A stretch of 64,000 nucleotides of DNA from an archaeon (GTDB lineage: Archaea > Nanobdellota > Nanobdellia > Woesearchaeales > JAADFO01). The notes below the pieces were generated by a model. It saw only the letters and a program-made list of their open reading frames with translations. It was not told where the DNA came from and ran no database searches. Position 1 is the stretch's first letter. Each line of letters opens with the position of its first letter. The DNA lies in the NCBI GenBank assembly GCA_043817075.1, contig JBDRHG010000014.1, positions 21,989 through 85,988 of the forward strand, in the 5' to 3' direction. The translations under genes were made by a program, and so were the position numbers. Below, piece after piece: positions 5,235 through 62,819 of the stretch.

Positions 5235-6014
5235 ATGGCACGCACACTCAACATCAAAGACCTCTCCGTGAGCACAGGAGGCAAGAACATCATCAGCGGT
5301 CTCTCCCTCGATGTGGAACAAGGGACAGTCCACGCCATCATGGGCCCAAACGGTTCGGGCAAGAGCACGCTCTCGTTCTCAATCATGGGCCATCCAGCAT
5401 ACAATGTGGACAAGGGTCAGATCCTCCTCGATGGAGAAGACATCAGCGATATGCCTGCCGACAAGCGGTCGAAGGCCGGCCTCTTCCTCTCGTTCCAATA
5501 TCCGAGCGAGGTCCCTGGCGTGACGTTGGCCAATTTCCTGCGTACCGCCATCAATGCGAGAAGAGAGAAGAGCGACAAGATCCCGATCCCCGAGTTCAAG
5601 AGATTGCTCGACGAGAAGATGGCACTCCTCAAGATGGACATGCGTTTCGCGGCGCGTTCCCTCAACCAGGGATTCTCGGGCGGCGAGAAGAAACGGAGCG
5701 AGATCCTGCAGATGTCGATGCTCTCCCCGGGCTTTGCCATACTCGACGAGACGGATTCCGGATTGGACATCGATTCACTCAAGATCGTGGCCGAAGGCAT
5801 CAATTCTCTCCGAGGACCTGACATCGGCATCCTGCTCATCACCCATTACCAACGTATCCTCCACTACATCAAGCCAGATATGGTCCATGTCATGATGGGC
5901 GGCAGGATCGTCGAGTCCGGCGGGTACGAGCTGGCCGAACGCCTGGAGAAAGAAGGTTATGGTTGGCTCGAGAACCGAGCGGATGAAGCCGACCGTAAGG
6001 AAATAGAGAAATAA
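5235..6014 (+). CDS. sufC: Fe-S cluster assembly ATPase SufC
   Basis: Walker [14 protein letters not shown] signature FSGGEKKR, and [10 protein letters not shown]. Start set at [12 protein letters not shown]. Confidence 0.9.
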
Positions 6015-21265: not shown

Positions 21266-22729
21266 TCAGACCGTGATACGATGCGTCGATTTATTCGGCA
21301 TCACTTTCAGATCAGCTTTTTTGGTGCTGTCCAGGAAAGTCTCCATGAACTCATAGATAAGGTTTCCGTCTTTTATCCCTGGGGAAATTTCAAGGGATGA
21401 GCTCACATCCACACCATATGGACTGAGCGTCAACACCTCATGCACATTGTCTGCTGATATTCCGCCTGCGATCATGATCCTCTTTCCTGGATGATCATGA
21501 ATAGCTTCCTGTAATATACCAAGAGGGACACGTTTGCCTGTCCCGCCAAAGGATTCGGAGGAAAATGCATCGAGCAATATGATGTCGGCCGTACACGACG
21601 CGATCCGATCCAAGTCGCCCTGATCCCTTATCCTTAGCCCTTTAATGACAGGTAAGCCTAGCCGGTCTTTGATATCAGCGATGTATGCTTCATCCTCGTC
21701 TCCGTGGAGCTGCACCATATCAAGACCAACGACCTTGGCTGTTCCCACAACGGTCGAGATCTCCGCGTCCACAAACACGCCCACGGTACGGCATGAAGGA
21801 ACAGCTTTATTCACGCCATCGATGATGCCTATCGCTCTCTCGGGACTGATGTTCCTGGGAGATTTTGCTTCGAACACGAATCCCATCATATCCGCTCCGG
21901 CCTTGGCTGCACAGAGACCTGCGGTCAAATCGGCGATGCCACAGATTTTGACGCGTGGCGAAGATAGGGAACTCAGACGCTGTCCGATGTCATCAGCAGC
22001 CATGATGGTCGTGCCGATGAGGAAAGCACCCGCGGCATCCGATAATGAACAGATGTCAGAACGAGAGTTCATGCCTGATTCAGATACGATGATGATGCCT
22101 GAAGGAACGAGCTTGGCCATCCTCGAAGTGTGCTCTAGGTCGACCTCGAAGGTCCTCAGGTCCCTGTTGTTGATGCCGACGATTTTGGAATCGGCCTCGA
22201 TCGCCCTATCCAGATCCTGCGTGTCATGGACCTCGACCAGGGAATCCATGCCAAGGGAAGCGGCTAATGCTGAAAGTTCGGTGATCTCTTTCGAACTGAG
22301 AACAGATGCGATGAGCAATACCGCATCGGCGCCTGCATCCCGTGCCTCGTACACCTGATAAGGATCGATGATGAAATCTTTCCGTAGGATGGGCAAGGCG
22401 GTGACCGTCCTTGCTTGCCTGAGCATGTCGAGGGATCCAGAGAAGAAAGGCCCATCTGTCACGACCGAGACCGCATCCGCATAGAGGTCGTATATCGCTG
22501 CGACTTTGGCAGCATCGAGATCCTGACGGATCACACCTTTTGAGGGGGAAGCCTTCTTGATCTCGCAGATGATGGCCGGGCGAGGCCGAGCCAGAGCAGC
22601 AGAGAAGGAACGAGTGGACGGCCGAATAGATTGCCTGAAGCTCTCCAACGGACGCTCACGTTTGATCGACACGAGATCTTCCCGCTTACGCGAGATTATG
22701 CGGTCTAGGATGGGGATCTGTTCAGTCAT
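21266..22729 (-). CDS. trpC: bifunctional indole-3-glycerol-phosphate synthase / phosphoribosylanthranilate isomerase
   Basis: The N-terminal half is IGPS (ICEIKKASPSKG, LRKDFIID, GINNRDL). The C-terminal half is PRAI (VKICGI..., GADMMGFVF, LLDAFS...GGTG). Confidence 0.88.
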   Translation of the reverse strand: MTEQIPILDRIISRKREDLVSIKRERPLESFRQSIRPSTRSFSAALARPRPAIICEIKKASPSKGVIRQDLDAAKVAAIYDLYADAVSVVTDGPFFSGSLDMLRQARTVTALPILRKDFIIDPYQVYEARDAGADAVLLIASVLSSKEITELSALAASLGMDSLVEVHDTQDLDRAIEADSKIVGINNRDLRTFEVDLEHTSRMAKLVPSGIIIVSESGMNSRSDICSLSDAAGAFLIGTTIMAADDIGQRLSSLSSPRVKICGIADLTAGLCAAKAGADMMGFVFEAKSPRNISPERAIGIIDGVNKAVPSCRTVGVFVDAEISTVVGTAKVVGLDMVQLHGDEDEAYIADIKDRLGLPVIKGLRIRDQGDLDRIASCTADIILLDAFSSESFGGTGKRVPLGILQEAIHDHPGKRIMIAGGISADNVHEVLTLSPYGVDVSSSLEISPGIKDGNLIYEFMETFLDSTKKADLKVMPNKSTHRITV

Positions 22730-23819
22730 CTGACATCACCTTTTGGGCGAAATCCGACAGCCGCTCCAGAGTGTCTTTGGCCTTGCCGCTGGCGATTGAC
22801 TCACGAGCAAGTGTGATTCCGTCTTGAATTGAGCCGGCCTTGCCAGCGGCAGCGATAGCGAATCCGGCATTGAGCAGTACGATGTCTGTCTTAGGTCCTA
22901 CCTCACCATCAAGGATACGTCTGATGATAGCCGCATTATGATCAGGATCGCCGCCCTTGATATCATCCAGGCTCGCCCGACGCATGCCGAAGGTCTCAGG
23001 AGCGACAGTAGACGTGGTGACCGTTCTGCCGCGCACTTCGCTGACTATGGTCTCACCGTGGATGGCGACCTCATCGAGGCCGTCGCCATGGACCACATAT
23101 GCGTGGGTCGTTCCCAGCTTGGCCAAGACTTGTGCGAGTTTGCCGGTGAGATCAGGAGAGAACACACCGAGGAGCTGGCGAGAGCAGAAAGCAGGATTGA
23201 CGAGCGGCCCGAGCACGTTGAACACTGTCCTGATGCCGAGCTCCTTTCGAGGCATTGCCACATGTTTCATCGCCTTGTGGAAGGCGGGCGCGAACATGAA
23301 TCCGATGCCAACGGACTCGATGCAACTCCGCACCTGCTCGGGGCTCAAGTCGACCCGGACACCCAATGCCTCGAGGACGTCTGCGCTACCCGACCTACTC
23401 GACACAGATCGGTTCCCGTGTTTTGCGACCGTCACACCAGCCCCGGCCGCCACGATCGCGACCGCAGTCGAGATGTTGAACGTGCCGCTCGTATCACCAC
23501 CAGTACCGCAAGTGTCCAAGGCATGGGTATCGCTGACAGATATGCGTTCACACTTGGCCCGCATTGTCTCGCAGAATCCGGTGATCTCATCGACTGTCTC
23601 ACCTTTCATGCGGAGAGCGACGAGGAGTCCGGCGATCTGCGCTGGGGTCCCGTGGCCATCCATGATGGCAGACATCACATCCCTGGCCTGTCTCTGAGTG
23701 AGGTCATGACCTTCAACGACCATACGGATGCTATCCTTCAGCAACCCAGTCTGCTGCTCGTTTCCGATCCTTCCGTCTGAAGGACCTGAAGGACCTGAAG
23801 GACCTGAAGTCATCAACAA
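22722..23819 (-). CDS. trpD: anthranilate phosphoribosyltransferase
   Basis: DTCGTGGD, KHGNRSVSSRSGSADVLEALG and NPA motifs. Confidence 0.9.
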   Translation of the reverse strand: MLMTSGPSGPSGPSDGRIGNEQQTGLLKDSIRMVVEGHDLTQRQARDVMSAIMDGHGTPAQIAGLLVALRMKGETVDEITGFCETMRAKCERISVSDTHALDTCGTGGDTSGTFNISTAVAIVAAGAGVTVAKHGNRSVSSRSGSADVLEALGVRVDLSPEQVRSCIESVGIGFMFAPAFHKAMKHVAMPRKELGIRTVFNVLGPLVNPAFCSRQLLGVFSPDLTGKLAQVLAKLGTTHAYVVHGDGLDEVAIHGETIVSEVRGRTVTTSTVAPETFGMRRASLDDIKGGDPDHNAAIIRRILDGEVGPKTDIVLLNAGFAIAAAGKAGSIQDGITLARESIASGKAKDTLERLSDFAQKVMSDD

Positions 23820-24436
23820 TCACCTCCTGTCAGATTGTTCTGCACCGCATCAAGAAGATTCTGGATGATCCGTCCACCTTGCGTAGTCAGGATGCTCTCC
23901 GGATGGAACTGCACCCCTTCGACCAGCGTCTTGCAGGACGGATGTCTCAGAGCCATGACCGTCCCATCCTTGGCACGGGCGCTCACCTCCAGGCATTCAG
24001 GGATCACCGCACCGCAAAGGGAGTGATAACGTCCGACATGAAGAGGAAGCGGCAGACCGGTGAACAGAGTTTTTCCGTCATGGCCGATGGGCGATGCCTT
24101 GCCGTGCACGATCTCGTCTGCGCGCGCGACCTTCCCGCCGAAAGCCTCAATGATGGCTTGATGTCCGAGGCATACCCCGAATATCGGTATCCGGCTGGCG
24201 AATGCCTTGATGAGTTCTATGCATACACCTGCATCCGACGGAGTCGATGGACCAGGACTGATGATTATGAGAGAAGGATTGAACTCTGAGACCAACCGTC
24301 CTAACTCATCGAGTGTGATGGAGTTTCGTACCACATGCACCTCGCAACCGCGCTGCTCGAATTCGTTGACGAGATTATAGGTGAAGGAATCGAAGTTGTC
24401 GACCATGAGCACCGGAAGAGCCATCTTAGGGTTCAT
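23813..24436 (-). CDS. trpG: anthranilate synthase component II (glutamine amidotransferase)
   Basis: Triad region GVCLGHQ and FHPES. About 200 aa. Confidence 0.9.
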   Translation of the reverse strand: MNPKMALPVLMVDNFDSFTYNLVNEFEQRGCEVHVVRNSITLDELGRLVSEFNPSLIIISPGPSTPSDAGVCIELIKAFASRIPIFGVCLGHQAIIEAFGGKVARADEIVHGKASPIGHDGKTLFTGLPLPLHVGRYHSLCGAVIPECLEVSARAKDGTVMALRHPSCKTLVEGVQFHPESILTTQGGRIIQNLLDAVQNNLTGGDC

Positions 24437-26031
24437 CGTTCTTCACCTCCAAGAGCGGCGAGACATGCTTTGGCCTTATGCGCGGTCTCGGCGTATTCTA
24501 ATTCCGGTACTGAGTCGAATACGACCCCTGCACCTGCACGGATGAATGCTCTATTACCTCTGAGGACCACTGAACGGATGATGAGTGCCGAGTCCATGTC
24601 GCCGCTCGGTGTGAGGTATGCGACGGCCCCGCCATAATAACCCCGCTTGGACTTTTCATTGCGCCGGAGAAGGTCCATGGCCATGATCTTCGGCGCGCCG
24701 GTCACCGTACCCATGTTCATCACCGCGGTGTAGACATGGAGCGCGTCGAATCCCTTCCGTACCTTGCTTGAGACATTAGACACAAGATGTTGGACATGAG
24801 AATATTTCTCCACAATGAGCGGTTCGTCGCAGACCGTCGTCCCCGGCACCGAGACCTTGGCCAGGTCGTTCCTCGCGAGGTCGACGAGCATCATGTGCTC
24901 GGCCACCTCTTTCTTGTCTATCTTGAGCTCGGCCTCATAGCGGCTGTCGAGATCGATGTTGAGCTCGCCATCGATGAGCCCCCTCGGTCGGGTGCCGGCG
25001 ATCGGTCTGATCTCGGCTGTCTTCTCAGCGTCGCGGCCATCACCGTTCTTGCCTTGGACGCGCACCGCCATCTCAGGGGATGATCCGATGAGATGATGGT
25101 CGCCGTTGCAGAAGAAGAACATGTACGGTGAGGGGTTGAGCCGGGAGAGGCGGATATATGTTCTGAAAGGATCGTCGTCATAGTCTGCGATGATGGTGCG
25201 GGACGGCACGATCTGGAAGACATCGCCGGCCTTGACATGCTCACGCATGTTAGTGACCGTCTGGATGTATTCATCTTCAGTGGTGTCGGACCGCAGCTGA
25301 TCGGTCCCCGAAGATGCCGCAGGGAACGGTTTCAGGGACGATGGAACGCCCTGCTCCAACGCCTTCCTGTAGGGAACAAAAAGTCTTTCGCATTCCTCAG
25401 ACGAGCGAACGATGCCCCTCCCTGACAATGATGCGGCTATGATATGCATCTCGTCCTTCTTGTGGTCGACCACGAACAGGTTGTCGGCGAAATAGAACAC
25501 ATAATCGGGTGTGCCGATGATGTCCTCCGCACTAGGCGACAAGGTCTCGAATTGATCGATGAAATCATAGGAGAAGATGCCGAACAGCCCGCCGTAAGGG
25601 ATGGTCGGCTTTCCCTCCGGCTTGAACATGAACGCGATGCGTCGGAGGATCTCCGTATGATTGATCGAGGTCAGACGTTCCATCTCATCAGCATGATCCG
25701 CCAGGCTCCGCGAGACAAGACGTCCTTTGAGACTGTCCCCATCCATCCGAATATCATCGACGAAGGAAAGCTCTTCCTGGATGGGACCGAGAAGCTTGCT
25801 GCCAAGCGGAGTGAGGGCCTCGATGAAGAATCGATCCCCATTCCCGACGATGCGTAGGCAAGGAGCATGAGTGCCTATCGAGTGCTCGCCGTATTTCGGG
25901 ACGATGTCCTTCGACTCGAGCAGGAAATGGTACTCGCTCCCTTTGGTCAATGCGCGGTAATAGTCGTCGATGCTCACAGGTCGCTTGACTGTCTTGACGA
26001 TAGGACGTAAAGAGATAGGGGTATCAGGCAC
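24433..26031 (-). CDS. trpE: anthranilate synthase component I
   Basis: Chorismate-binding blocks SPEMAVRV, GTRPRG, GAPKIMAM and GGAVAY. Confidence 0.9.
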   Translation of the reverse strand: MPDTPISLRPIVKTVKRPVSIDDYYRALTKGSEYHFLLESKDIVPKYGEHSIGTHAPCLRIVGNGDRFFIEALTPLGSKLLGPIQEELSFVDDIRMDGDSLKGRLVSRSLADHADEMERLTSINHTEILRRIAFMFKPEGKPTIPYGGLFGIFSYDFIDQFETLSPSAEDIIGTPDYVFYFADNLFVVDHKKDEMHIIAASLSGRGIVRSSEECERLFVPYRKALEQGVPSSLKPFPAASSGTDQLRSDTTEDEYIQTVTNMREHVKAGDVFQIVPSRTIIADYDDDPFRTYIRLSRLNPSPYMFFFCNGDHHLIGSSPEMAVRVQGKNGDGRDAEKTAEIRPIAGTRPRGLIDGELNIDLDSRYEAELKIDKKEVAEHMMLVDLARNDLAKVSVPGTTVCDEPLIVEKYSHVQHLVSNVSSKVRKGFDALHVYTAVMNMGTVTGAPKIMAMDLLRRNEKSKRGYYGGAVAYLTPSGDMDSALIIRSVVLRGNRAFIRAGAGVVFDSVPELEYAETAHKAKACLAALGGEER

Positions 26032-48324: not shown

Positions 48325-48677
48325 AAAAGGGTTTCTCGGGCCTAAGCAACTCCGTTGCTTTAGGGCCCCGGGAAAAACAGAAAAAAACAGAAAAGTAGGA
48401 CTACCATAACAATTCTTTCGCCAATTGGAAGCGAAATACGTTTCGCCTACGGCTCAAGCGTACAAAATAAAGAAAAGTAGGACTACCATAACAATTCTCT
48501 CGCCAATTGGAAGCGAAATACGTTTCGCCTACGGCTCAAGCGTACAAAATAAAGAAAAGTAGGACTACCGTGATTCTCACCGGCTTTTTAACAAACCCGA
48601 AGAAACCCTGTTTCTTGGGCCCAAGCAACTCCGTTGCTTTAGGGCCCCGGGAAAAACAGGAAAAAAAGAGAGAAAAG
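48325..48677. repeat. composite repeat block 3' of tRNA-Pro: GGGCC-hairpin module, two perfect-tandem 82-bp units, third partial unit plus second hairpin module
   Basis: 82-bp units at 48391-48472 and 48473-48554 differ at one base. Each starts AAAAGTAGGACTACC, mimicking the tRNA 3' end AAAAGTGGGGCTACC at 48673. The hairpin module GGGCC[CT]AAGCAACTCCGTTGCTTTAGGGCCCC occurs at 48338-48369 and 48617-48649. Confidence 0.85.
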
Positions 48678-48793
48678 TGGGGCTACCGTGATTTGAACAC
48701 GGGTCGCCAGCTGTCCGTCTCATCGTGGCCGCCTAGCGGCGGCATCTCGACGAACCCCGAGCTGGAGTGATAGCCAAGCTACACTATAGCCCC
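48678..48793 (-). tRNA. tRNA-Pro-like gene with ~42-nt intron in the anticodon loop (anticodon read as GGG; loop UCGGGGA)
   Basis: Acceptor GGGGCUA/UAGCCCC, T arm CCGUG-UUCAAAU-CACGG, anticodon stem CCAGC/GCUGG. The insert, about 48713-48754, folds into a relaxed bulge-helix-bulge. Isotype and exact splice sites were hand-derived, and C at position 33 is unusual. Confidence 0.7.
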
Positions 48794-50793: not shown

Positions 50794-50924
50794 TGGGGCG
50801 ACCGGGATTTGAACCCGGGACACCTAGATATCTGATAATCATAGGCCCGCAGGCCCATTCATATCCAGGCAGTGACGCCGTGGCATCTTCAGTCTAGTGC
50901 TCTCCCAGACTGAGCTACCGCCCC
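50794..50924 (-). tRNA. tRNA-Phe(GAA) with 57-nt intron at 37/38
   Basis: GGGGCGG-UA-GCUC..GAGC-A-CUAGA-CUGAAGA ... UCUAG-GUGUC-CCGGG-UUCAAAU-CCCGG-UCGCCCC-A. The intron is about 50830-50886. CUGA (positions 32-35) pairs with UCAG in the intron, flanked by 3-nt bulges AGA and AUA (BHB). Confidence 0.85.
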
Positions 50925-59886: not shown

Positions 59887-59930
59887 CTCCGGTCGACCGA
59901 AGCCATCTTTTTCTTCTCTTCCTGTTTCAA

Positions 59931-59950
59931 TGAGCTGTTAGGTTAACGTC
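59931..59950. repeat. left terminal inverted repeat
   Basis: TGAGCTGTTAGGTTAACGTC, preceded by the target duplication TGTTTCAA. Confidence 0.8.
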
Positions 59951-60017
59951 ATCTTCTACCGATTTATTTTCAATAATATTTTTATAGTCGGGCCCCGTAC
60001 TCGAATTCGGAACTCAG

Positions 60018-60692
60018 ATGAAAGCCGACGAATTTCGGAAAAATGTACTTGTGGTATTGCCAAAACAGTACCGTCTCCTCTTGGGATGCTATTTAAAGAA
60101 TCCTCAGGCTTCGTACAAAGAGATTATCAATGATACTGGCATGAGTGCAGCTATCATTGCACATGCGAAGCATGATTGCATGAACTTGGGGTTCATGACA
60201 AATGGGTCGGGATGTAATGTCACGCCCACAGGTAATTTATTTTTAAAGTTACAATCTGACTCAAAAGAGGAGTGGGAGGCACTTCATGATAATGCACTCA
60301 AGATAGACTTGTTCCGAGAATTACATAGTGGTCTTGGCTCTAAGCCTAAGCGACATGAAATCTTCGGTGTCTTGAGGGCTAAAGCTCCAGAAAATTATGC
60401 AAAACGAATCATTCAACGAATTGTGAGACGATATTATCAGTATGTTATAGGTATAAAAGTCATGCCTAAGGGCCGCTCATTAAAACCTAACGAGATAGGG
60501 AATCAAACGACCATCAACATTGTCAAGTGGACAAATGATTGTGATGTATGGAGTTTTCTCGTTAAGAAATATCATCTATCAGGAGATGAACTCAAGCACA
60601 TCATTGAAGCATTTCCAAAGTTGGCAAAGAAGGAAATTGATGAAGAGATGCTTAATGAGCATATAAAAAAAAAATATGGGGAGCTGGTGTAG
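60018..60692 (+). CDS. hypothetical protein (possible N-terminal wHTH), transposon cargo
   Basis: 224-aa AT-rich ORF. No recognisable catalytic motif. The last 15 nt overlap the 5' end of tRNA-Thr. Confidence 0.5.
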   Translation: MKADEFRKNVLVVLPKQYRLLLGCYLKNPQASYKEIINDTGMSAAIIAHAKHDCMNLGFMTNGSGCNVTPTGNLFLKLQSDSKEEWEALHDNALKIDLFRELHSGLGSKPKRHEIFGVLRAKAPENYAKRIIQRIVRRYYQYVIGIKVMPKGRSLKPNEIGNQTTINIVKWTNDCDVWSFLVKKYHLSGDELKHIIEAFPKLAKKEIDEEMLNEHIKKKYGELV

Positions 60693-60748
60693 TGATAGCA
60701 TCCCGGCCTTGTGAGCCGGTGATCCGGGATCAAATCCCGGGCTCCCCA
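60678..60748 (+). tRNA. tRNA-Thr(UGU), atypical D and T loops
   Basis: GGGGAGC/GCUCCCC acceptor, anticodon arm CCGGC-CUUGUGA-GCCGG, T arm CCGGG-AUCAAAU-CCCGG. The D loop AGUGAUA lacks the usual GG, and position 54 is A. Confidence 0.75.
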
Positions 60749-60754
60749 TTTTTT

Positions 60755-60828
60755 GGGCTGGTCGTCTAATCTGGAAAGGACAGGTACCTACTGAGTGTCG
60801 AATCCGGGTTCAAATCCCGGCCAGCCCA
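60755..60828 (+). tRNA. type-I tRNA with anticodon ACU (Arg-UCU-like body)
   Basis: GGGCUGG/CCAGCCC acceptor, D arm GUCU-AAUCUGGAAA-GGAC, anticodon arm GGUAC-CUACUGA-GUGUC, 4-nt variable loop, T arm CCGGG-UUCAAAU-CCCGG. Followed by a TTTTTT run. Confidence 0.7.
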
Positions 60829-60998
60829 CCGTTTTTTAATATAAAATGCCAGTGACAGTGGAACCCAGATAAATGCCTAAGAAGCATTTAGTGGCTGTCA
60901 CCAACAAAAACATGTACGATAACTTAGTTTATATAGAATGGGTATAATTTGTAACGAATTGGTATAATATCTAATGTTTTGATATTTGAACTGTATTT

Positions 60999-61160
60999 TT
61001 AGTCTTTCTCAATGATGAGTTTCTCATCATGAATTTCTGCTTCGAGTTCTTGTCCTGTTTTCCACCCTAACTTCTCTATGAGTTTGTTTGGTATGACAAT
61101 CCAGTGTTTCTGGTATGCTTTGCCTTTGTATTCGCTGTGTTTTTGGCTTTGGAGCTTCAT
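60999..61160 (-). CDS. AbrB/SpoVT-type (swapped-hairpin) small DNA-binding protein, 53 aa
   Basis: Hand translation: MKLQSQKHSEYKGKAYQKHWIVIPNKLIEKLGWKTGQELEAEIHDEKLIIEKD*. The segment IVIPNKLIEKLGWKTGQELEAEI..EKLII fits the AbrB-domain pattern. Below the ORF-track length cutoff. Confidence 0.6.
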   Translation of the reverse strand: MKLQSQKHSEYKGKAYQKHWIVIPNKLIEKLGWKTGQELEAEIHDEKLIIEKD

Positions 61161-61165
61161 AATGT

Positions 61166-61270
61166 CTTTGGGTACCTTATTCCTTTAAATAGTTTTTGGT
61201 ACCCGAAACTATGTTTTAGGTACACAATATTTGGGTACCAAAATACTTATATAGTTTATTGGGTACCCAA
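61166..61270. promoter_or_regulatory. array of five GGTAC[CA] palindrome-centred motifs between the divergent AbrB-like and transposase genes
   Basis: TTTGGGTACCTTA (61171), TTTTGGTACCCGAAA (61198), TTTAGGTACACAA (61219), TTTGGGTACCAAAA (61234), TATTGGGTACCCAAA (61262). All lie within about 100 bp, and the last ends 8 nt before the transposase ATG. Confidence 0.55.
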
Positions 61271-61275
61271 ACTGT

Positions 61276-62184
61276 ATGAGTCAGCAAATAAGATGTATCC
61301 ACTGCAAAGCCACCAACTACACCAAGAAAGGCTTTCGCAAGACCGAGAACCGAGGAAAAATCCAGAAATACCAATGTACAGAGTGTGGTCAGTACTTCAC
61401 CAATGATGAAGGTTTCTACCGTATGCGAAACTGCGAGAAGATTGTCACGATGAGCGTTGATATGTACCTATCAAATCTGTCCTCTCGTAAGATGAGGAAT
61501 CAGTTAAAGCGACATATGGATACGAAGATAAGTCACGTCTCCGTCCTTGATTGGGTGCGTAAATACGTTCTGAAAGTCCAGCACTACATTGAGAAGTTCA
61601 CGCCGAAACTGTCCGGTAAGTTCTATGTGGACGAAACGGATATTCCGAGGGGTTGCAACACGAAAAAGAAGGGCGGTGACAAGTTCTGGTGTTGCGTCGA
61701 TTGGGAAACCAGATACATCAACGCCACCATGTACAGTCCGAAGAATCAAAGCGTAGCGGAAGCCACGAGGTTTCTTAAAAAGACTGTTAAGCATGGTAAA
61801 CCGAAATTCATCCAGACTGATGCGGCAAAGTTTTACCCTAAAGCCATGAGACGATGTTTCTCCACGAACACAACTAAGGGATTCACTATTGGCGGAGAGA
61901 AGCGAATAGGTGTTGAACACCGTATTAACAACGTCAGCAAGACCAAGAAGCATAACGTAAGAATAGAAACTGTGTTCTCAAAGATTAAAGATCGTGTGGA
62001 TGACTTCCGAGGAATCAAAGCCCTATGGAGTGCCCCAATACTTCTCGCAGGAATAGTCTTGCAACATAACTTTATCGAGGCCCACACCACGACAGGAGCA
62101 ATACCTTCAGAACTCGCAGGAATAGGTTATCAAACAGGAGAAAACAGATGGTTGGAACTTATTAGAGTTTCCGCTTATTCTTAA
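61276..62184 (+). CDS. DDE transposase with N-terminal zinc ribbon (IS6/IS240-like)
   Basis: Zinc ribbon CIHCKATNY...YQCTECGQYF. DDE candidates are FYVDETDI, FIQTDAAKFYPKA and NVRIETVFSKIKDR, with a LQHNFIEAH tail. The pattern is that of DDE_Tnp_IS240 as I recall it. Confidence 0.7.
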   Translation: MSQQIRCIHCKATNYTKKGFRKTENRGKIQKYQCTECGQYFTNDEGFYRMRNCEKIVTMSVDMYLSNLSSRKMRNQLKRHMDTKISHVSVLDWVRKYVLKVQHYIEKFTPKLSGKFYVDETDIPRGCNTKKKGGDKFWCCVDWETRYINATMYSPKNQSVAEATRFLKKTVKHGKPKFIQTDAAKFYPKAMRRCFSTNTTKGFTIGGEKRIGVEHRINNVSKTKKHNVRIETVFSKIKDRVDDFRGIKALWSAPILLAGIVLQHNFIEAHTTTGAIPSELAGIGYQTGENRWLELIRVSAYS

Positions 62185-62698
62185 TTTTTTTAGCGAGAAT
62201 AATGGATTTTCTCGCATTAAAAATTATGTGAACAATCATAAACAACAACGTCGATAACGCAATTATACTTAGAACAAGTATCACCAATGAGAATGATGCA
62301 AAAGAAAAACTAATTGAAAAATACACAGAAACGGCCAGATTAAAAATCATCAGATAAATAAAAAAAGTTTTGCAAAGAAATGGAAATGCCTTCGCTTTAC
62401 TCAGCCGATTAATCAAAGTTTTATCGGAAGTACTAATATTTCCACCATCCTTAAAACCATAAGAAATGATTAAATCATCACGAATTTTAATGTAAATGAT
62501 CGACACAAGGATAGACACAAATAATAAAATTCCATATGACAAAGAAGGCCACTTATTCGATAGAATCCACCCATACACAAATATCGGAGCATACACCCCA
62601 ATACCTCTAACAATCTTCTCAAAGTTAAGCAAATCAAGTATATCCATAGCTAACGCCAATACATATACATCGACCATATTTAAAGATTTGTTCTCCAT
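62162..62698 (-). CDS. hypothetical membrane protein, transposon cargo
   Basis: 178-aa very AT-rich ORF with 4-5 TM spans. Its 3' end overlaps the transposase 3' end by 23 nt. Confidence 0.5.
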   Translation of the reverse strand: MENKSLNMVDVYVLALAMDILDLLNFEKIVRGIGVYAPIFVYGWILSNKWPSLSYGILLFVSILVSIIYIKIRDDLIISYGFKDGGNISTSDKTLINRLSKAKAFPFLCKTFFIYLMIFNLAVSVYFSISFSFASFSLVILVLSIIALSTLLFMIVHIIFNARKSIILAKKIKNKRKL

Positions 62699-62734
62699 TC
62701 ACCAAAAACTATTACAATAAACGCCATCTCAGGT

Positions 62735-62754
62735 GACGTTTACTTAACAGCTCA
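62735..62754. repeat. right terminal inverted repeat
   Basis: GACGTTTACTTAACAGCTCA, followed by the target duplication TGTTTCAA. Confidence 0.8.
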
Positions 62755-62819
62755 TGTTTCAATAACCTTTAAATACCCTCTCCTGTTATCGTCCTCGCTA
62801 TGGCGCCGCAAAAAGAGAT

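What the first reader, a model, noticed from the sequence alone, without database searches (positions are those of the whole stretch)
59923..62762. IS-type transposon with clean TIRs and 8-bp target duplication that carries two tRNA genes as cargo
- The left end (59931-59950) is TGAGCTGTTAGGTTAACGTC. The reverse complement of the right end (62735-62754) is TGAGCTGTTAAGTAAACGTC. They match at 18 of 20 positions, and the first 10 are perfect.
- Directly outside both ends sits the same 8-mer, TGTTTCAA, in direct orientation. This is the classic transposition footprint.
- The interior is visibly AT-rich against the mid-50s % GC flanks.
- Deleting the element plus one TGTTTCAA joins the hxlR 3' flank to a TTTAAATA box about 45 nt upstream of valS.
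- The cargo is a wHTH-like ORF, tRNA-Thr(UGU), a second tRNA, an AbrB-like gene, a zinc-ribbon DDE transposase and a small membrane protein. The transposase looks IS6/IS240-like, and that family is known for 8-bp duplications.
- tRNA passengers are common in viruses, but I do not know of them as cargo of a simple TIR-bounded insertion element.
- UGU (ACA codons) and a UCU-like tRNA body (AGA codons) are what an AT-rich element would need in a GC-rich host.
Basis: partly seen in the sequence, partly recalled or inferred. Interest (0 to 1): 0.85.

Follow-up and report, generated by a model that had tools for sequence, protein, structure and literature searches.

The report
IS6-like archaeal transposon carrying tRNAs
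A 2.8-kb jumping gene from a large, apparently undescribed family of cargo-carrying IS6-like transposons of DPANN archaea has landed between two host genes, and its cargo unusually includes two tRNA genes that belong to a small recurring module (protein, tRNA-like RNA, hairpin) of unknown function.

Summary
Window 59931-62754 is a 2,824-bp element with 18/20 terminal inverted repeats and a perfect 8-bp target duplication (TGTTTCAA). It is 39% GC in a 54% GC host. It encodes a zinc-ribbon DDE transposase of IS6/IS240 type.

It is not a one-off. I delimited 75 related elements, almost all from DPANN archaea. They share the terminus TGAGCTGTtAAGT and perfect 8-bp duplications, and they are 1.7-6.8 kb long, so all carry cargo. 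About two thirds share a core in which a ~53-aa AbrB-like gene lies divergent from the transposase across a ~115-bp region with four GGTACC sites.

tRNA cargo is rare: two of the 75, plus a degenerate tRNA-like element in a third found separately. tRNAs are no denser in cargo than in flanking DNA.

ACA usage is equal in host and element, and the second tRNA reads ACU, not UCU, and has no class II Ser arm.

The tRNAs follow a 224-aa winged-helix-like protein. Its remote homologs in seven other loci are also followed by structured RNA: a tRNA-like element in five or six and a hairpin in all. The function of this module is unknown.

Verdict: a real transposon, a new variant of a known kind, moderately interesting.

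The parts
59923..59930 (.). Left copy of the 8-bp target-site duplication, TGTTTCAA
   Evidence: Only two copies of this 8-mer exist in the window.
59931..59953 (+). Left terminal inverted repeat (IRL), TGAGCTGTTAGGTTAACGTCATC
   Evidence: 18/20, and 20/23 when extended. It matches the family consensus TGAGCTGTtAAGTtaaCg built from 150 ends.
60018..60692 (+). Cargo gene ORF224 (NCBI MFH1591107.1), a winged-helix-like protein and the first gene inside IRL. Its last 15 nt overlap tRNA-Thr.
   Evidence: No Pfam or NCBIfam hit. Ten remote homologs at 22-30% identity. Three of the ten family members hit HTH_24 weakly. The AF2 model built on the alignment has pLDDT 80, and its Foldseek hits are all weak MarR-type matches.
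60678..60748 (+). Cargo tRNA-Thr(UGU), canonical cloverleaf, anticodon loop CUUGUGA, A73, no encoded CCA, followed by T6
   Evidence: ARAGORN. Rfam RF00005, 59.7 bits.
60755..60828 (+). Cargo tRNA with anticodon ACU (called 'Ser' by ARAGORN). It has a class I body with a short variable arm, A34, G37, and two G.U pairs in the anticodon stem. It occupies the position held by the tRNA-like element in related modules.
   Evidence: ARAGORN. Rfam, 47.1 bits, with alignment. True DPANN tRNA-Ser genes in the loci are 84-86 nt with long arms.
60852..60901 (+). Hairpin with arms GTGACAGT/GCTGTCAC and a 34-nt loop, preceded by the AT-rich box AATATAAAA. This is the third component of the ORF224 module.
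   Evidence: An equivalent hairpin sits at the same relative position in all 8 ORF224-family loci, and the arm sequences are unrelated.
60999..61160 (-). AbrB/SpoVT (MazE-fold) small DNA-binding protein, 53 aa. It is a core gene of the family and the probable repressor of both divergent promoters.
   Evidence: Pfam PF04014, 30.6 bits. TIGR01439 AbrB, weak. Present in 52 of 75 elements and divergent from the transposase in 51.
61161..61275 (.). Divergent 115-bp control region. Four GGTACC sites (61171, 61198, 61234, 61262) bracket two TATA-like boxes: TTTAAATA at 61184-61191 for the AbrB gene and TTATATA at 61247-61253 for the transposase.
   Evidence: Four of the window's eight GGTACC sites lie here. 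An intergenic length of about 113-118 bp is typical of the family, and GGTACC occurs 2-6 times in 22 of the 51 elements with the divergent arrangement.
61276..62184 (+). Transposase (NCBI MFH1591109.1), 302 aa. N-terminal CxxC...CxxC zinc ribbon plus an IS6/IS240-type DDE domain. Candidate catalytic residues are D119, D182, E231 and K238.
   Evidence: Pfam DDE_Tnp_IS240, 39.4 bits. NCBIfam IS6, 74 bits across the full profile, and IS1, 34 bits. 722 homologs. Invariant residues.
62162..62698 (-). Cargo gene for a 178-aa predicted membrane protein with no detectable family
   Evidence: 4-5 hydrophobic segments; no family. No homolog in 39 other elements.
62732..62754 (-). Right terminal inverted repeat (IRR); reverse complement TGAGCTGTTAAGTAAACGTCACC
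62755..62762 (.). Right copy of the 8-bp target-site duplication, TGTTTCAA, 5 bp upstream of the valS TATA box

Best explanation
Window 59931-62754 is an intact, recently inserted member of a DPANN-wide family of IS6-like transposons that always carry cargo ('transporter IS').

Inferred mechanism:
- A zinc-ribbon DDE transposase recognises the ~20-bp ends (TGAGCTGTtAAGT, with CTGTT at positions 5-9 as in IS26).
- It inserts with an 8-bp staggered cut, probably by the IS6-type copy-in/cointegrate route.
- A divergently encoded AbrB-fold protein probably represses its own promoter and the transposase promoter by binding four GGTACC sites that bracket both TATA boxes.

In this copy the cargo is a membrane protein plus a three-part module:
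- a winged-helix-like protein (ORF224);
- tRNA-Thr(UGU) and an atypical ACU tRNA;
- a hairpin RNA.

The module recurs in other mobile-element contexts, with a tRNA-like element in most. Most of those tRNA-like elements are too degenerate to decode. The tRNA part of the module therefore most likely works as structured RNA, for example an RNase P/Z processing or stabilising signal for the co-transcribed unit, or another non-decoding role. It probably does not act as a codon-supply device. The window's two copies could still be charged.

Shown: ends, duplication, family membership, core architecture, recurrence of the module.
Inferred: transposition pathway, AbrB repression, RNA role.
For: The element:
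- TIR 18/20 plus a unique 8-bp DR. No shuffle comes close.
- GC drops by 15 points.
- The transposase hits DDE_Tnp_IS240 above gathering and NCBIfam IS6 across the full profile. It keeps every residue that is invariant across the 30-sequence family alignment.

The family:
- A motif-free search for a perfect 8-bp DR plus at least 13/16 TIR spanning the transposase gene recovered 40 elements with the same terminus.
- With metagenome loci the total is 75 elements, 1,749-6,788 bp, median 2,946 bp.
- AbrB-like gene in 52 of 75, divergent in 51. The intergenic region is ~115 bp, with GGTACC repeated in 22.
- In the window, four GGTACC sites bracket the two TATA boxes.

The module:
- ORF224 homologs were found by full HMMER.
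- L156 is a complete 2,274-bp element with TSD CGTTTTTG and a transposase 59% identical to the window's. It has the same layout: IRL, ORF224 homolog, tRNA-like element, hairpin.
- A tRNA-like element lies directly downstream in 5 of 8 loci, against 5 of 400 control segments.
- A hairpin with a 33-40 nt loop in seven loci (19-34 nt in L164, depending on the arms chosen) and unrelated, compensating arms is present in all 8. G.T pairs in the L156 and L163 arms indicate RNA on the coding strand.
Against: - No empty site and no second copy could be found. The host has no relative closer than 67% ValRS identity, and the exact transposase is on one contig only. Mobility is therefore inferred from structure and from the family, not from a before/after comparison.
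- The tRNA-like elements outside the window fail Rfam at E<=0.1. They rest on relaxed ARAGORN calls and on inspection.
- Only 8 module loci exist, and two of them (L157, L158) lack a tRNA-like element.
- A T6 run between the two window tRNAs could terminate transcription.
- There are no expression data.
- NCBIfam IS6 scores below its equivalog cutoff (74 against 125).
Confidence: 0.75

Rival explanations
1. Codon supply. The AT-rich element brings tRNAs for codons that are rare in the GC-rich host, so that its own genes are translated well.
For: - AGU, the perfect match for an ACU anticodon, is the host's rarest Ser codon: 3.7 per 1000 codons against 14.5 in element genes.
- The GC3 gap is 0.69 against 0.44.
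- The GC difference between element and host is at the top of the family range.
Against: - ACA usage is the same in host and element, 9.8 against 10.5 per 1000, so tRNA-Thr(UGU) supplies nothing scarce.
- The AGU signal rests on 11 codons, and AGU is normally read by a GCU tRNA.
- The ACU tRNA lacks the long variable arm of the tRNA-Ser genes found in the DPANN loci.
- It has A34. From my own knowledge, untested here, archaea do not normally use A34 and SerRS relies on the long arm.
- L027 carries a similar pair although its element and host differ by only 5 GC points.
- tRNA density in cargo is not above that in flanks.
Confidence: 0.12
2. Neutral hitchhikers. The tRNA genes were swept up with neighbouring DNA when the cargo was captured, have no role for the element, and are decaying.
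For: - Only 2 of 75 delimited elements carry Rfam- or ARAGORN-grade tRNAs.
- Cargo tRNA density is 0.14 per 10 kb against 0.21-0.45 in flanks.
- The second tRNA has several non-canonical features.
- The tRNA-like elements in related modules are degenerate.
Against: - The tRNA-like element keeps its position and strand directly after ORF224 homologs that are only 22-30% identical, in 5 of 8 loci against a 1.25% background.
- Its acceptor stem and T-arm stay intact. That argues for retention by selection.
- tRNA-Thr scores 59.7 bits and shows no decay.
- The window and L027 both pair a Thr(UGU) tRNA with a short-arm NCU tRNA. By my rough estimate, chance would give this in about 1 in 1000 cases.
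Confidence: 0.2
3. Anti-defence decoys or replacements. The mobile element carries tRNA or tRNA-like RNAs that resist or soak up host tRNA-cleaving toxins, as some phage tRNAs do.
For: - The module occurs in virus- or plasmid-like islands as well as in transposons.
- Other cargo in the family is defence-related: DNA methylase and a nuclease in 9 of 40 elements.
- The anticodon loops are unusual: G37 after U36, A34, and C33 in L027.
Against: - No anticodon nuclease was identified in the host window.
- Anticodon types are not consistent across module loci.
- G37 after U36 also appears in a chromosomal DPANN tRNA-Thr (L091).
- The evidence is purely circumstantial.
Confidence: 0.08
4. Not a transposon. 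The tRNAs are native host genes, or the region is an integrated virus or plasmid remnant, and the inverted and direct repeats are coincidental.
For: Single copy with no empty site available. ORF224 relatives do occur in virus-like islands.
Against: - About 5e-5 such TIR-plus-DR pairs are expected per window, and none occur in shuffles.
- 75 related elements have the same ends and 8-bp duplications at different sites.
- There is no integrase and no internal TIR.
- Low GC extends over the whole 2.8 kb.
- The host tRNA confirmed in the window carries an intron and the cargo tRNAs do not.
Confidence: 0.02

Closest known systems
IS6 (IS26/IS240) family of insertion sequences
   Same: - DDE transposase matching DDE_Tnp_IS240 and the full NCBIfam IS6 profile.
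- 8-bp target duplication.
- Short TIRs with the CTGTT motif at positions 5-9, as in the family logo described by Varani et al. 2021 (PMC7986276).
- The nearest annotated relatives are bacterial IS6/IS240 transposases.
   Different: - Only about 26% identity to annotated IS6 transposases, and below the NCBIfam equivalog cutoff.
- The tip is TG(A)G rather than GG, and there is no 'caaa' motif.
- An IS1/IS1595-like N-terminal zinc ribbon.
- Length is 1.7-6.8 kb rather than 700-890 bp.
- There is a second core gene (AbrB-like) and always cargo.
- Host range is DPANN, which the archaeal clades listed in PMC7986276 do not cover.
ISDsp3, the only IS6-family 'tIS' (IS with a passenger gene) listed by Varani et al. 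2021
   Same: An IS6-type element with a passenger gene inside its inverted repeats (PMC7986276).
   Different: ISDsp3 is a single bacterial case with one hypothetical gene. Here a whole family of at least 75 elements carries variable multi-gene cargo, including R-M genes, tRNAs and RNA elements.
Tn3-family transposons with toxin-antitoxin genes inside the transposition module (PMC7157771; title and abstract only, seen)
   Same: A small antitoxin-fold (AbrB/MazE-type) DNA-binding gene sits next to the transposase as part of the conserved core rather than as cargo.
   Different: There is no toxin partner here. The transposase family is different. I infer the role to be promoter repression through GGTACC sites, not addiction.
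tRNA genes carried by viruses and other large mobile elements
   Same: Intron-less tRNA genes with their own T-run terminators, carried on a mobile element whose base composition differs from the host's.
   Different: The carrier is a 2.8-kb TIR-bounded DDE transposon, not a virus, plasmid or island. Codon-usage matching is not seen. One tRNA is non-canonical, and related copies have degenerated into tRNA-like elements.
tRNA-like processing elements (tRNA-punctuated transcripts; the mascRNA type). This is a resemblance recalled from my own knowledge, offered as a lead.
   Same: An intact acceptor stem plus T-arm with a variable or degenerate middle, placed directly after a coding region and before another structured RNA. 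The window's second tRNA gives a weak sub-threshold hit to the mascRNA model (22.6 bits).
   Different: No processing was shown. The window copies are full canonical-scoring tRNAs. The organisms and context (archaeal mobile elements) are different.

Membership tests
IS6 family | DDE transposase of IS6/IS240 type | tested here: met
   Pfam PF13610, 39.4 bits against a cutoff of 27. NCBIfam NF033587 aligns over profile positions 1-201 of 202 but scores 74 against the 125 equivalog cutoff. This makes it a divergent relative.
IS6 family | 8-bp direct target repeats | tested here: met
   Perfect 8-bp DR in the window and in 75 related elements.
IS6 family | Short (15-20 bp) terminal IRs with a GG tip and cTGTt and caaa motifs (PMC7986276) | tested here: inconclusive
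   The ~20-bp IRs have CTGTT at positions 5-9 and G at position 2, but the tip is TG and there is no caaa motif.
IS6 family | Simple organisation of about 700-890 bp with a single transposase ORF | tested here: not met
   Elements are 1,749-6,788 bp with a second core gene and cargo.
IS6 family | Transposition through replicative cointegrates | not testable with these tools
   This needs genetics or biochemistry.
Transporter IS (tIS) | Passenger genes unrelated to transposition lie inside the IS ends and move with the element | tested here: met
   The TSD flanks the whole 2,824 bp and there is no internal TIR. Cargo varies between family members.
Canonical tRNA (first gene, Thr-UGU) | Cloverleaf scoring above the Rfam tRNA gathering score, with a 7-nt anticodon loop and U33 | tested here: met
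   59.7 bits against 29. Loop CUUGUGA.
tRNA-Ser (second gene, as labelled by ARAGORN) | Class II body with a long variable arm | tested here: not met
   74-76 nt with a 4-5 nt variable region. tRNA-Ser genes in the DPANN loci are 84-86 nt. The anticodon ACU has A34.
Type II toxin-antitoxin (MazEF/VapBC type) | An antitoxin gene paired with an adjacent toxin gene | tested here: not met
   The AbrB/MazE-fold gene is present, but no toxin ORF lies next to it in the window. Its conserved partner across the family is the transposase.
Winged-helix (MarR-like) DNA-binding proteins (ORF224) | A recognisable wHTH domain by profile or fold | tested here: inconclusive
   The window protein has no Pfam hit. 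Three of the 10 family members hit HTH_24 weakly. The model has pLDDT 80, but its Foldseek hits to MarR-type chains are all at E>=0.14.

The most novel reading that the evidence does not exclude
DPANN mobile elements share a previously unrecognised three-part module: a winged-helix protein, a tRNA-derived RNA and a hairpin RNA. In it, tRNA genes have been recruited for a non-decoding job such as RNA processing or stabilisation, a toxin decoy, or a ribonucleoprotein with ORF224. An undescribed family of cargo-carrying IS6-like transposons moves this module between lineages. A bolder variant is that the short-arm NCU tRNAs (ACU here, GCU in L027) are charged with something other than Ser and recode AGY codons.
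Probability: 0.2. Interest if true: 0.8.

Novelty: new variant of a known kind. Interest (0 to 1): 0.6.

Why it matters
- IS6 elements are regarded as minimal ~0.8-kb insertion sequences that move other genes only as pseudo-compound transposons. Here a whole archaeal branch has instead become a unit transposon, with a built-in AbrB-type regulator and interchangeable cargo (R-M genes, membrane proteins, RNA genes).
- That gives a concrete vehicle for gene flow among DPANN archaea. These organisms have tiny genomes and are thought to depend on exchange with hosts and neighbours.
- The 15-point GC mismatch in this copy points to a recent transfer between lineages.
- I found no earlier description of tRNA genes inside a simple TIR-bounded DDE element.
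- The linked module of protein, tRNA-like RNA and hairpin is a small testable system that may show a way in which tRNA genes are put to other uses on mobile elements.

Tried and rejected
- Exact look-ups of the transposase found no recorded gene positions, so the source contig could not be extended.
- Empty-site test: the host ValRS has no relative above 67% identity.
- Phage database and IMG/VR: no transposase relatives and no exact copies of either tRNA's 3' half.
- PDB sequence search with the transposase profile: nothing.
- The single-sequence AF2 model of ORF224 was unusable at pLDDT 39. The alignment-based model was good, but Foldseek gave only weak hits.
- A shared 'tRNA pair convergent with AbrB' module in the window and L027 was rejected. 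L027's 103-aa ORF shows no AbrB signal and no similarity.
- G37 after U36 as a special mark of cargo tRNAs was dropped, because a chromosomal DPANN tRNA-Thr (L091) also shows it.
- Rfam on the ORF224-homolog loci found nothing.
- The ORF224 alignment is too divergent for a collection scan.
- A second TIR-plus-DR candidate at 22410-25253 was judged to be chance. Both ends lie inside long ORFs of one operon, there is no GC shift and there is no transposase.

Full report
**1. The observation**

- Left end, 59931-59950: TGAGCTGTTAGGTTAACGTC. Reverse complement of 62735-62754: TGAGCTGTTAAGTAAACGTC. They match at 18/20, with the first ten perfect, and at 20/23 when extended.
- TGTTTCAA abuts both ends. 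It occurs nowhere else in the window on either strand.
- The interior is 39.4% GC against 54.2% outside.
- About 5e-5 such TIR-plus-DR configurations are expected per window analytically. In 30 block-shuffled windows, no 8-bp direct-repeat pair had even 15/20 inverted ends.
- ARAGORN and Rfam agree on two tRNA genes: 60678-60748 (Thr, UGU, 59.7 bits) and 60755-60828 (47.1 bits).
- Pfam places ORF 61276-62184 in DDE_Tnp_IS240 and ORF 60999-61160(-) in the MazE/AbrB fold, both above the gathering score.
- The 178-aa ORF at 62162-62698(-) has 4-5 hydrophobic segments.

There are two corrections.
- The second tRNA's anticodon is ACU (loop CUACUGA), not UCU-like.
- The valS TATA box (62768-62775) is 5 bp from the duplication and 32 nt from the ATG at 62800.

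**2. It belongs to a large family**

- The transposase has 722 detectable homologs, the best at 60-71% identity. Where they are named, they come from Woese-, Nano-, Aenigmat- and Pacearchaeota.
- I fetched 72 loci from species-representative genomes and 80 from metagenomes.
- I first ran a search with no sequence motif. It asked for a perfect 8-bp direct repeat spanning the transposase gene with at least 13/16 inverted ends. This recovered 40 elements that all start TGAGCTGT(T/A)AAGT.
- With the metagenome loci the total is 75 delimited elements of 1,749-6,788 bp, median 2,946 bp.
- The consensus terminus from 150 ends is TGAGCTGTtAAGTtaaCg.cA..T.
- Target duplications have an AT-rich centre, with a bias to C at position 1 and G at position 8.
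- The transposase gene is only 0.9 kb, so every member carries additional DNA.

**3. Core and cargo**

- ORF clustering shows the transposase in all elements and a ~53-aa AbrB-like gene in most.
- By tblastn, 52 of 75 elements have the AbrB-like gene. In 51 it is divergent from the transposase, across an intergenic region that is typically 113-118 bp.
- In the window this region holds four of the window's eight GGTACC sites. They fall in two pairs that bracket the two TATA-like boxes.
- 22 of the 51 elements repeat GGTACC in the same place.
- I infer that the AbrB-fold protein represses both promoters.
- It is not a toxin-antitoxin pair, because no toxin gene accompanies it.
- The rest is variable cargo. 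An N6/N4 DNA methylase cluster occurs in 9 of 40 elements. In L027 it is paired with a PD-(D/E)XK-like gene.

**4. Relation to IS6**

Varani et al. 2021 (PMC7986276) define IS6 by these features:
- an average length of about 800 bp;
- 8-bp duplications;
- 15-20-bp IRs with a GG tip and cTGTt and caaa motifs;
- a single known member with a passenger gene (ISDsp3).

This family compares as follows:
- It shares the 8-bp duplication, the CTGTT motif in the same register, and the catalytic domain.
- NCBIfam IS6 aligns across the full profile but scores 74 against a cutoff of 125. IS1 scores 34 bits, and an IS1/IS1595 zinc-domain hit is weak.
- The closest annotated proteins are bacterial IS6/IS240 transposases at about 26% identity.
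- It differs in tip sequence, in having a zinc ribbon, in size, in having a second core gene, and in obligate cargo.
- I found no paper describing it.
- Candidate catalytic residues D119, D182 and E231, plus K238, follow from invariance and spacing. This is an inference.

**5. The host**

- The ValRS fragment next to the insertion has no relative above 67% identity. Its next hits, at 44-58%, are mostly Woese-, Nano-, Alti-, Undin- and Aenigmatarchaeota.
- The host is therefore an uncultured archaeon with DPANN-like affinities and unusually high GC. NCBI labels it 'MAG: archaeon'. The protein accessions are MFH1591107.1 and MFH1591109.1.
- No close genome exists for an empty-site test.
- Family elements are usually somewhat AT-richer than their flanks, 32% against 37.5% on average. 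The 15-point gap here is at the top of the range.
- Together with the perfect duplication and the intact transposase, this indicates a recent arrival from a lower-GC lineage.

**6. How special is tRNA cargo?**

- Among the 75 elements, only the window and L027 have tRNAs inside their ends.
- tRNA density is 0.14 per 10 kb of cargo, against 0.21-0.45 per 10 kb of flanking DNA. The family is not enriched for tRNAs.
- The window and L027 elements share no DNA similarity outside the transposase gene and the termini.
- Both nevertheless pair a Thr(UGU) tRNA with a short-arm tRNA whose anticodon is NCU: ACU here, and GCU with C33 in L027.
- The two NCU tRNAs are each other's best match among 35 tRNAs, at 70% identity.
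- True tRNA-Ser genes in these genomes are 84-86 nt with long arms. The NCU tRNAs are therefore not canonical Ser tRNAs.
- From my own knowledge, not tested here, A34 is also unusual for archaea.

**7. Codon supply is not supported**

| Codon | Host genes (per 1000) | Element genes (per 1000) |
|---|---|---|
| ACA | 9.8 | 10.5 |
| AGU | 3.7 | 14.5 (11 codons) |
| AGA | 6.7 | 11.8 |

- No UCU tRNA is present to read AGA.

**8. The tRNAs belong to a recurring module**

- The 224-aa ORF upstream looked like an ORFan in the word-indexed search. Exhaustive HMMER then found ten remote homologs at 22-30% identity.
- Three of the ten family members hit HTH_24 weakly.
- An alignment-based AF2 model reaches pLDDT 80. 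Its Foldseek hits are weak MarR-type matches.
- The contexts of seven homologs were retrieved.
- L156 is a complete 2,274-bp family element with TSD CGTTTTTG and a transposase 59% identical to the window's. Its layout is IRL, ORF224 homolog, tRNA-like(CGU), hairpin, transposase.
- L158 shows the same layout beside a more distant IS6-like transposase at 33% identity.
- The other loci are virus- or plasmid-like islands of small ORFs.
- At an ARAGORN threshold that gives 5 hits in 400 control segments, 5 of 8 loci have a tRNA-like element directly downstream on the same strand. A sixth, L162, shows an acceptor stem and T-arm by inspection.
- None of these passes Rfam, so they are degenerate.
- All eight loci then have an AT-rich box and a hairpin with 7-13-bp arms of unrelated sequence. 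The loop is 33-40 nt in seven loci, and 19 or 34 nt in L164 depending on which arms are chosen. G.T pairs in the L156 and L163 arms imply RNA on the coding strand.
- The window's hairpin is at 60852-60901.
- In the window the ACU tRNA occupies the position of the tRNA-like element. tRNA-Thr sits between it and the ORF and overlaps the ORF's last 15 nt.
- An HMM of the family finds no further member in the 154 loci fetched through the transposase. The module is therefore rare cargo.

**9. Interpretation**

- The transposon identity is secure.
- For the tRNAs, the recurrence of a tRNA-shaped element after a fast-evolving protein gene argues against pure hitch-hiking. The retained parts are the ones recognised by RNase P, RNase Z and the CCA-adding enzyme, while the decoding arm has been lost.
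- The same pattern argues against codon supply. It points to a structural or processing role, or some other non-decoding role.
- Which role it is cannot be decided here.

**10. Caveats**

- The module rests on eight loci.
- There are no expression data.

**11. Verdict**

This is a real mobile element and a new variant of a known kind: an IS6-like unit transposon family in DPANN archaea. Its tRNA-containing cargo module is unusual and partly characterised. Interest is moderate to high for mobile-element and archaeal specialists.

Noticed in passing
window 61171-61267: Four GGTACC palindromes, spaced 27, 36 and 28 bp apart, bracket the two divergent TATA boxes between the AbrB-like gene and the transposase. 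The same motif is repeated in 22 of 51 related elements, within an intergenic region of nearly constant ~115-bp length.
   Followed up: partly
window 60783-60788: A fifth GGTACC, one of only eight in the 64-kb window, lies in the anticodon stem of the second cargo tRNA. It could be chance or a binding site for the AbrB-like protein.
   Followed up: no
window 22410-25253: A second pair of 16/20 inverted ends with an 8-bp direct repeat (TGACCGTC). Both ends lie inside long ORFs of one operon, there is no GC shift and there is no transposase. I judged it to be chance.
   Followed up: yes
window 50794-50924 (-) and 48677-48793 (-): Host tRNA-Phe(GAA) carries a ~57-nt intron (Rfam 53 bits). A tRNA-Pro(GGG) with a 42-nt intron is called by ARAGORN only. 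The cargo tRNAs have no introns.
   Followed up: partly
L027 3398-7047: A second tRNA-bearing family element. Its cargo is a PD-(D/E)XK-like gene, an N6/N4 DNA methylase, a zinc-ribbon protein, a short-arm tRNA(GCU) with C33, and tRNA-Thr(UGU). A methylase cluster occurs in 9 of 40 elements, so restriction-modification is common cargo.
   Followed up: partly
L073 416, 461, 848: The locus of the closest transposase relative (71% identity) has three left-end-like termini in the same orientation within 450 bp. This suggests nested or tandem insertion remnants, or alternative ends.
   Followed up: no
L156 2346-2362: Directly after the right target duplication lies TGAATGAACTGTCAAAA. It resembles the variant terminus TGAACTGTCAAA seen in L050, so a second element may abut this one.
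   Followed up: no
L090 3500-3664; L091 3482-3616: Two family elements are inserted within 50-80 bp of chromosomal tRNA genes (Leu-UAG and Thr-GGU). This may reflect insertion near tRNA genes and offers a possible route to capturing them.
   Followed up: no
L158 ~860-905; L163 ~2880-2950; L157 ~5715-5800: Some ORF224-family loci have an extra long hairpin between the ORF and the later RNA elements. Its arms resemble GATGGGG...CGTCCCC. The window has tRNA-Thr in that position.
   Followed up: no
75 related elements (loci L001-L154): Target duplications show an AT-rich centre with C favoured at position 1 and G at position 8. This indicates a weakly palindromic target preference.
   Followed up: partly
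L123 3441-3756: A cluster of three tRNA genes (Gly-UCC, Arg-CCU, Leu-CAA) lies 1.3 kb upstream of a family transposase, in a locus where no ends could be delimited. It is undecided whether this is cargo or chromosome.
   Followed up: partly
window 60722-60748 and 60802-60828: The 3' halves (T-arm plus acceptor strand) of the two cargo tRNAs are 85% identical over 27 nt. This suggests a shared origin or homogenisation.
   Followed up: no
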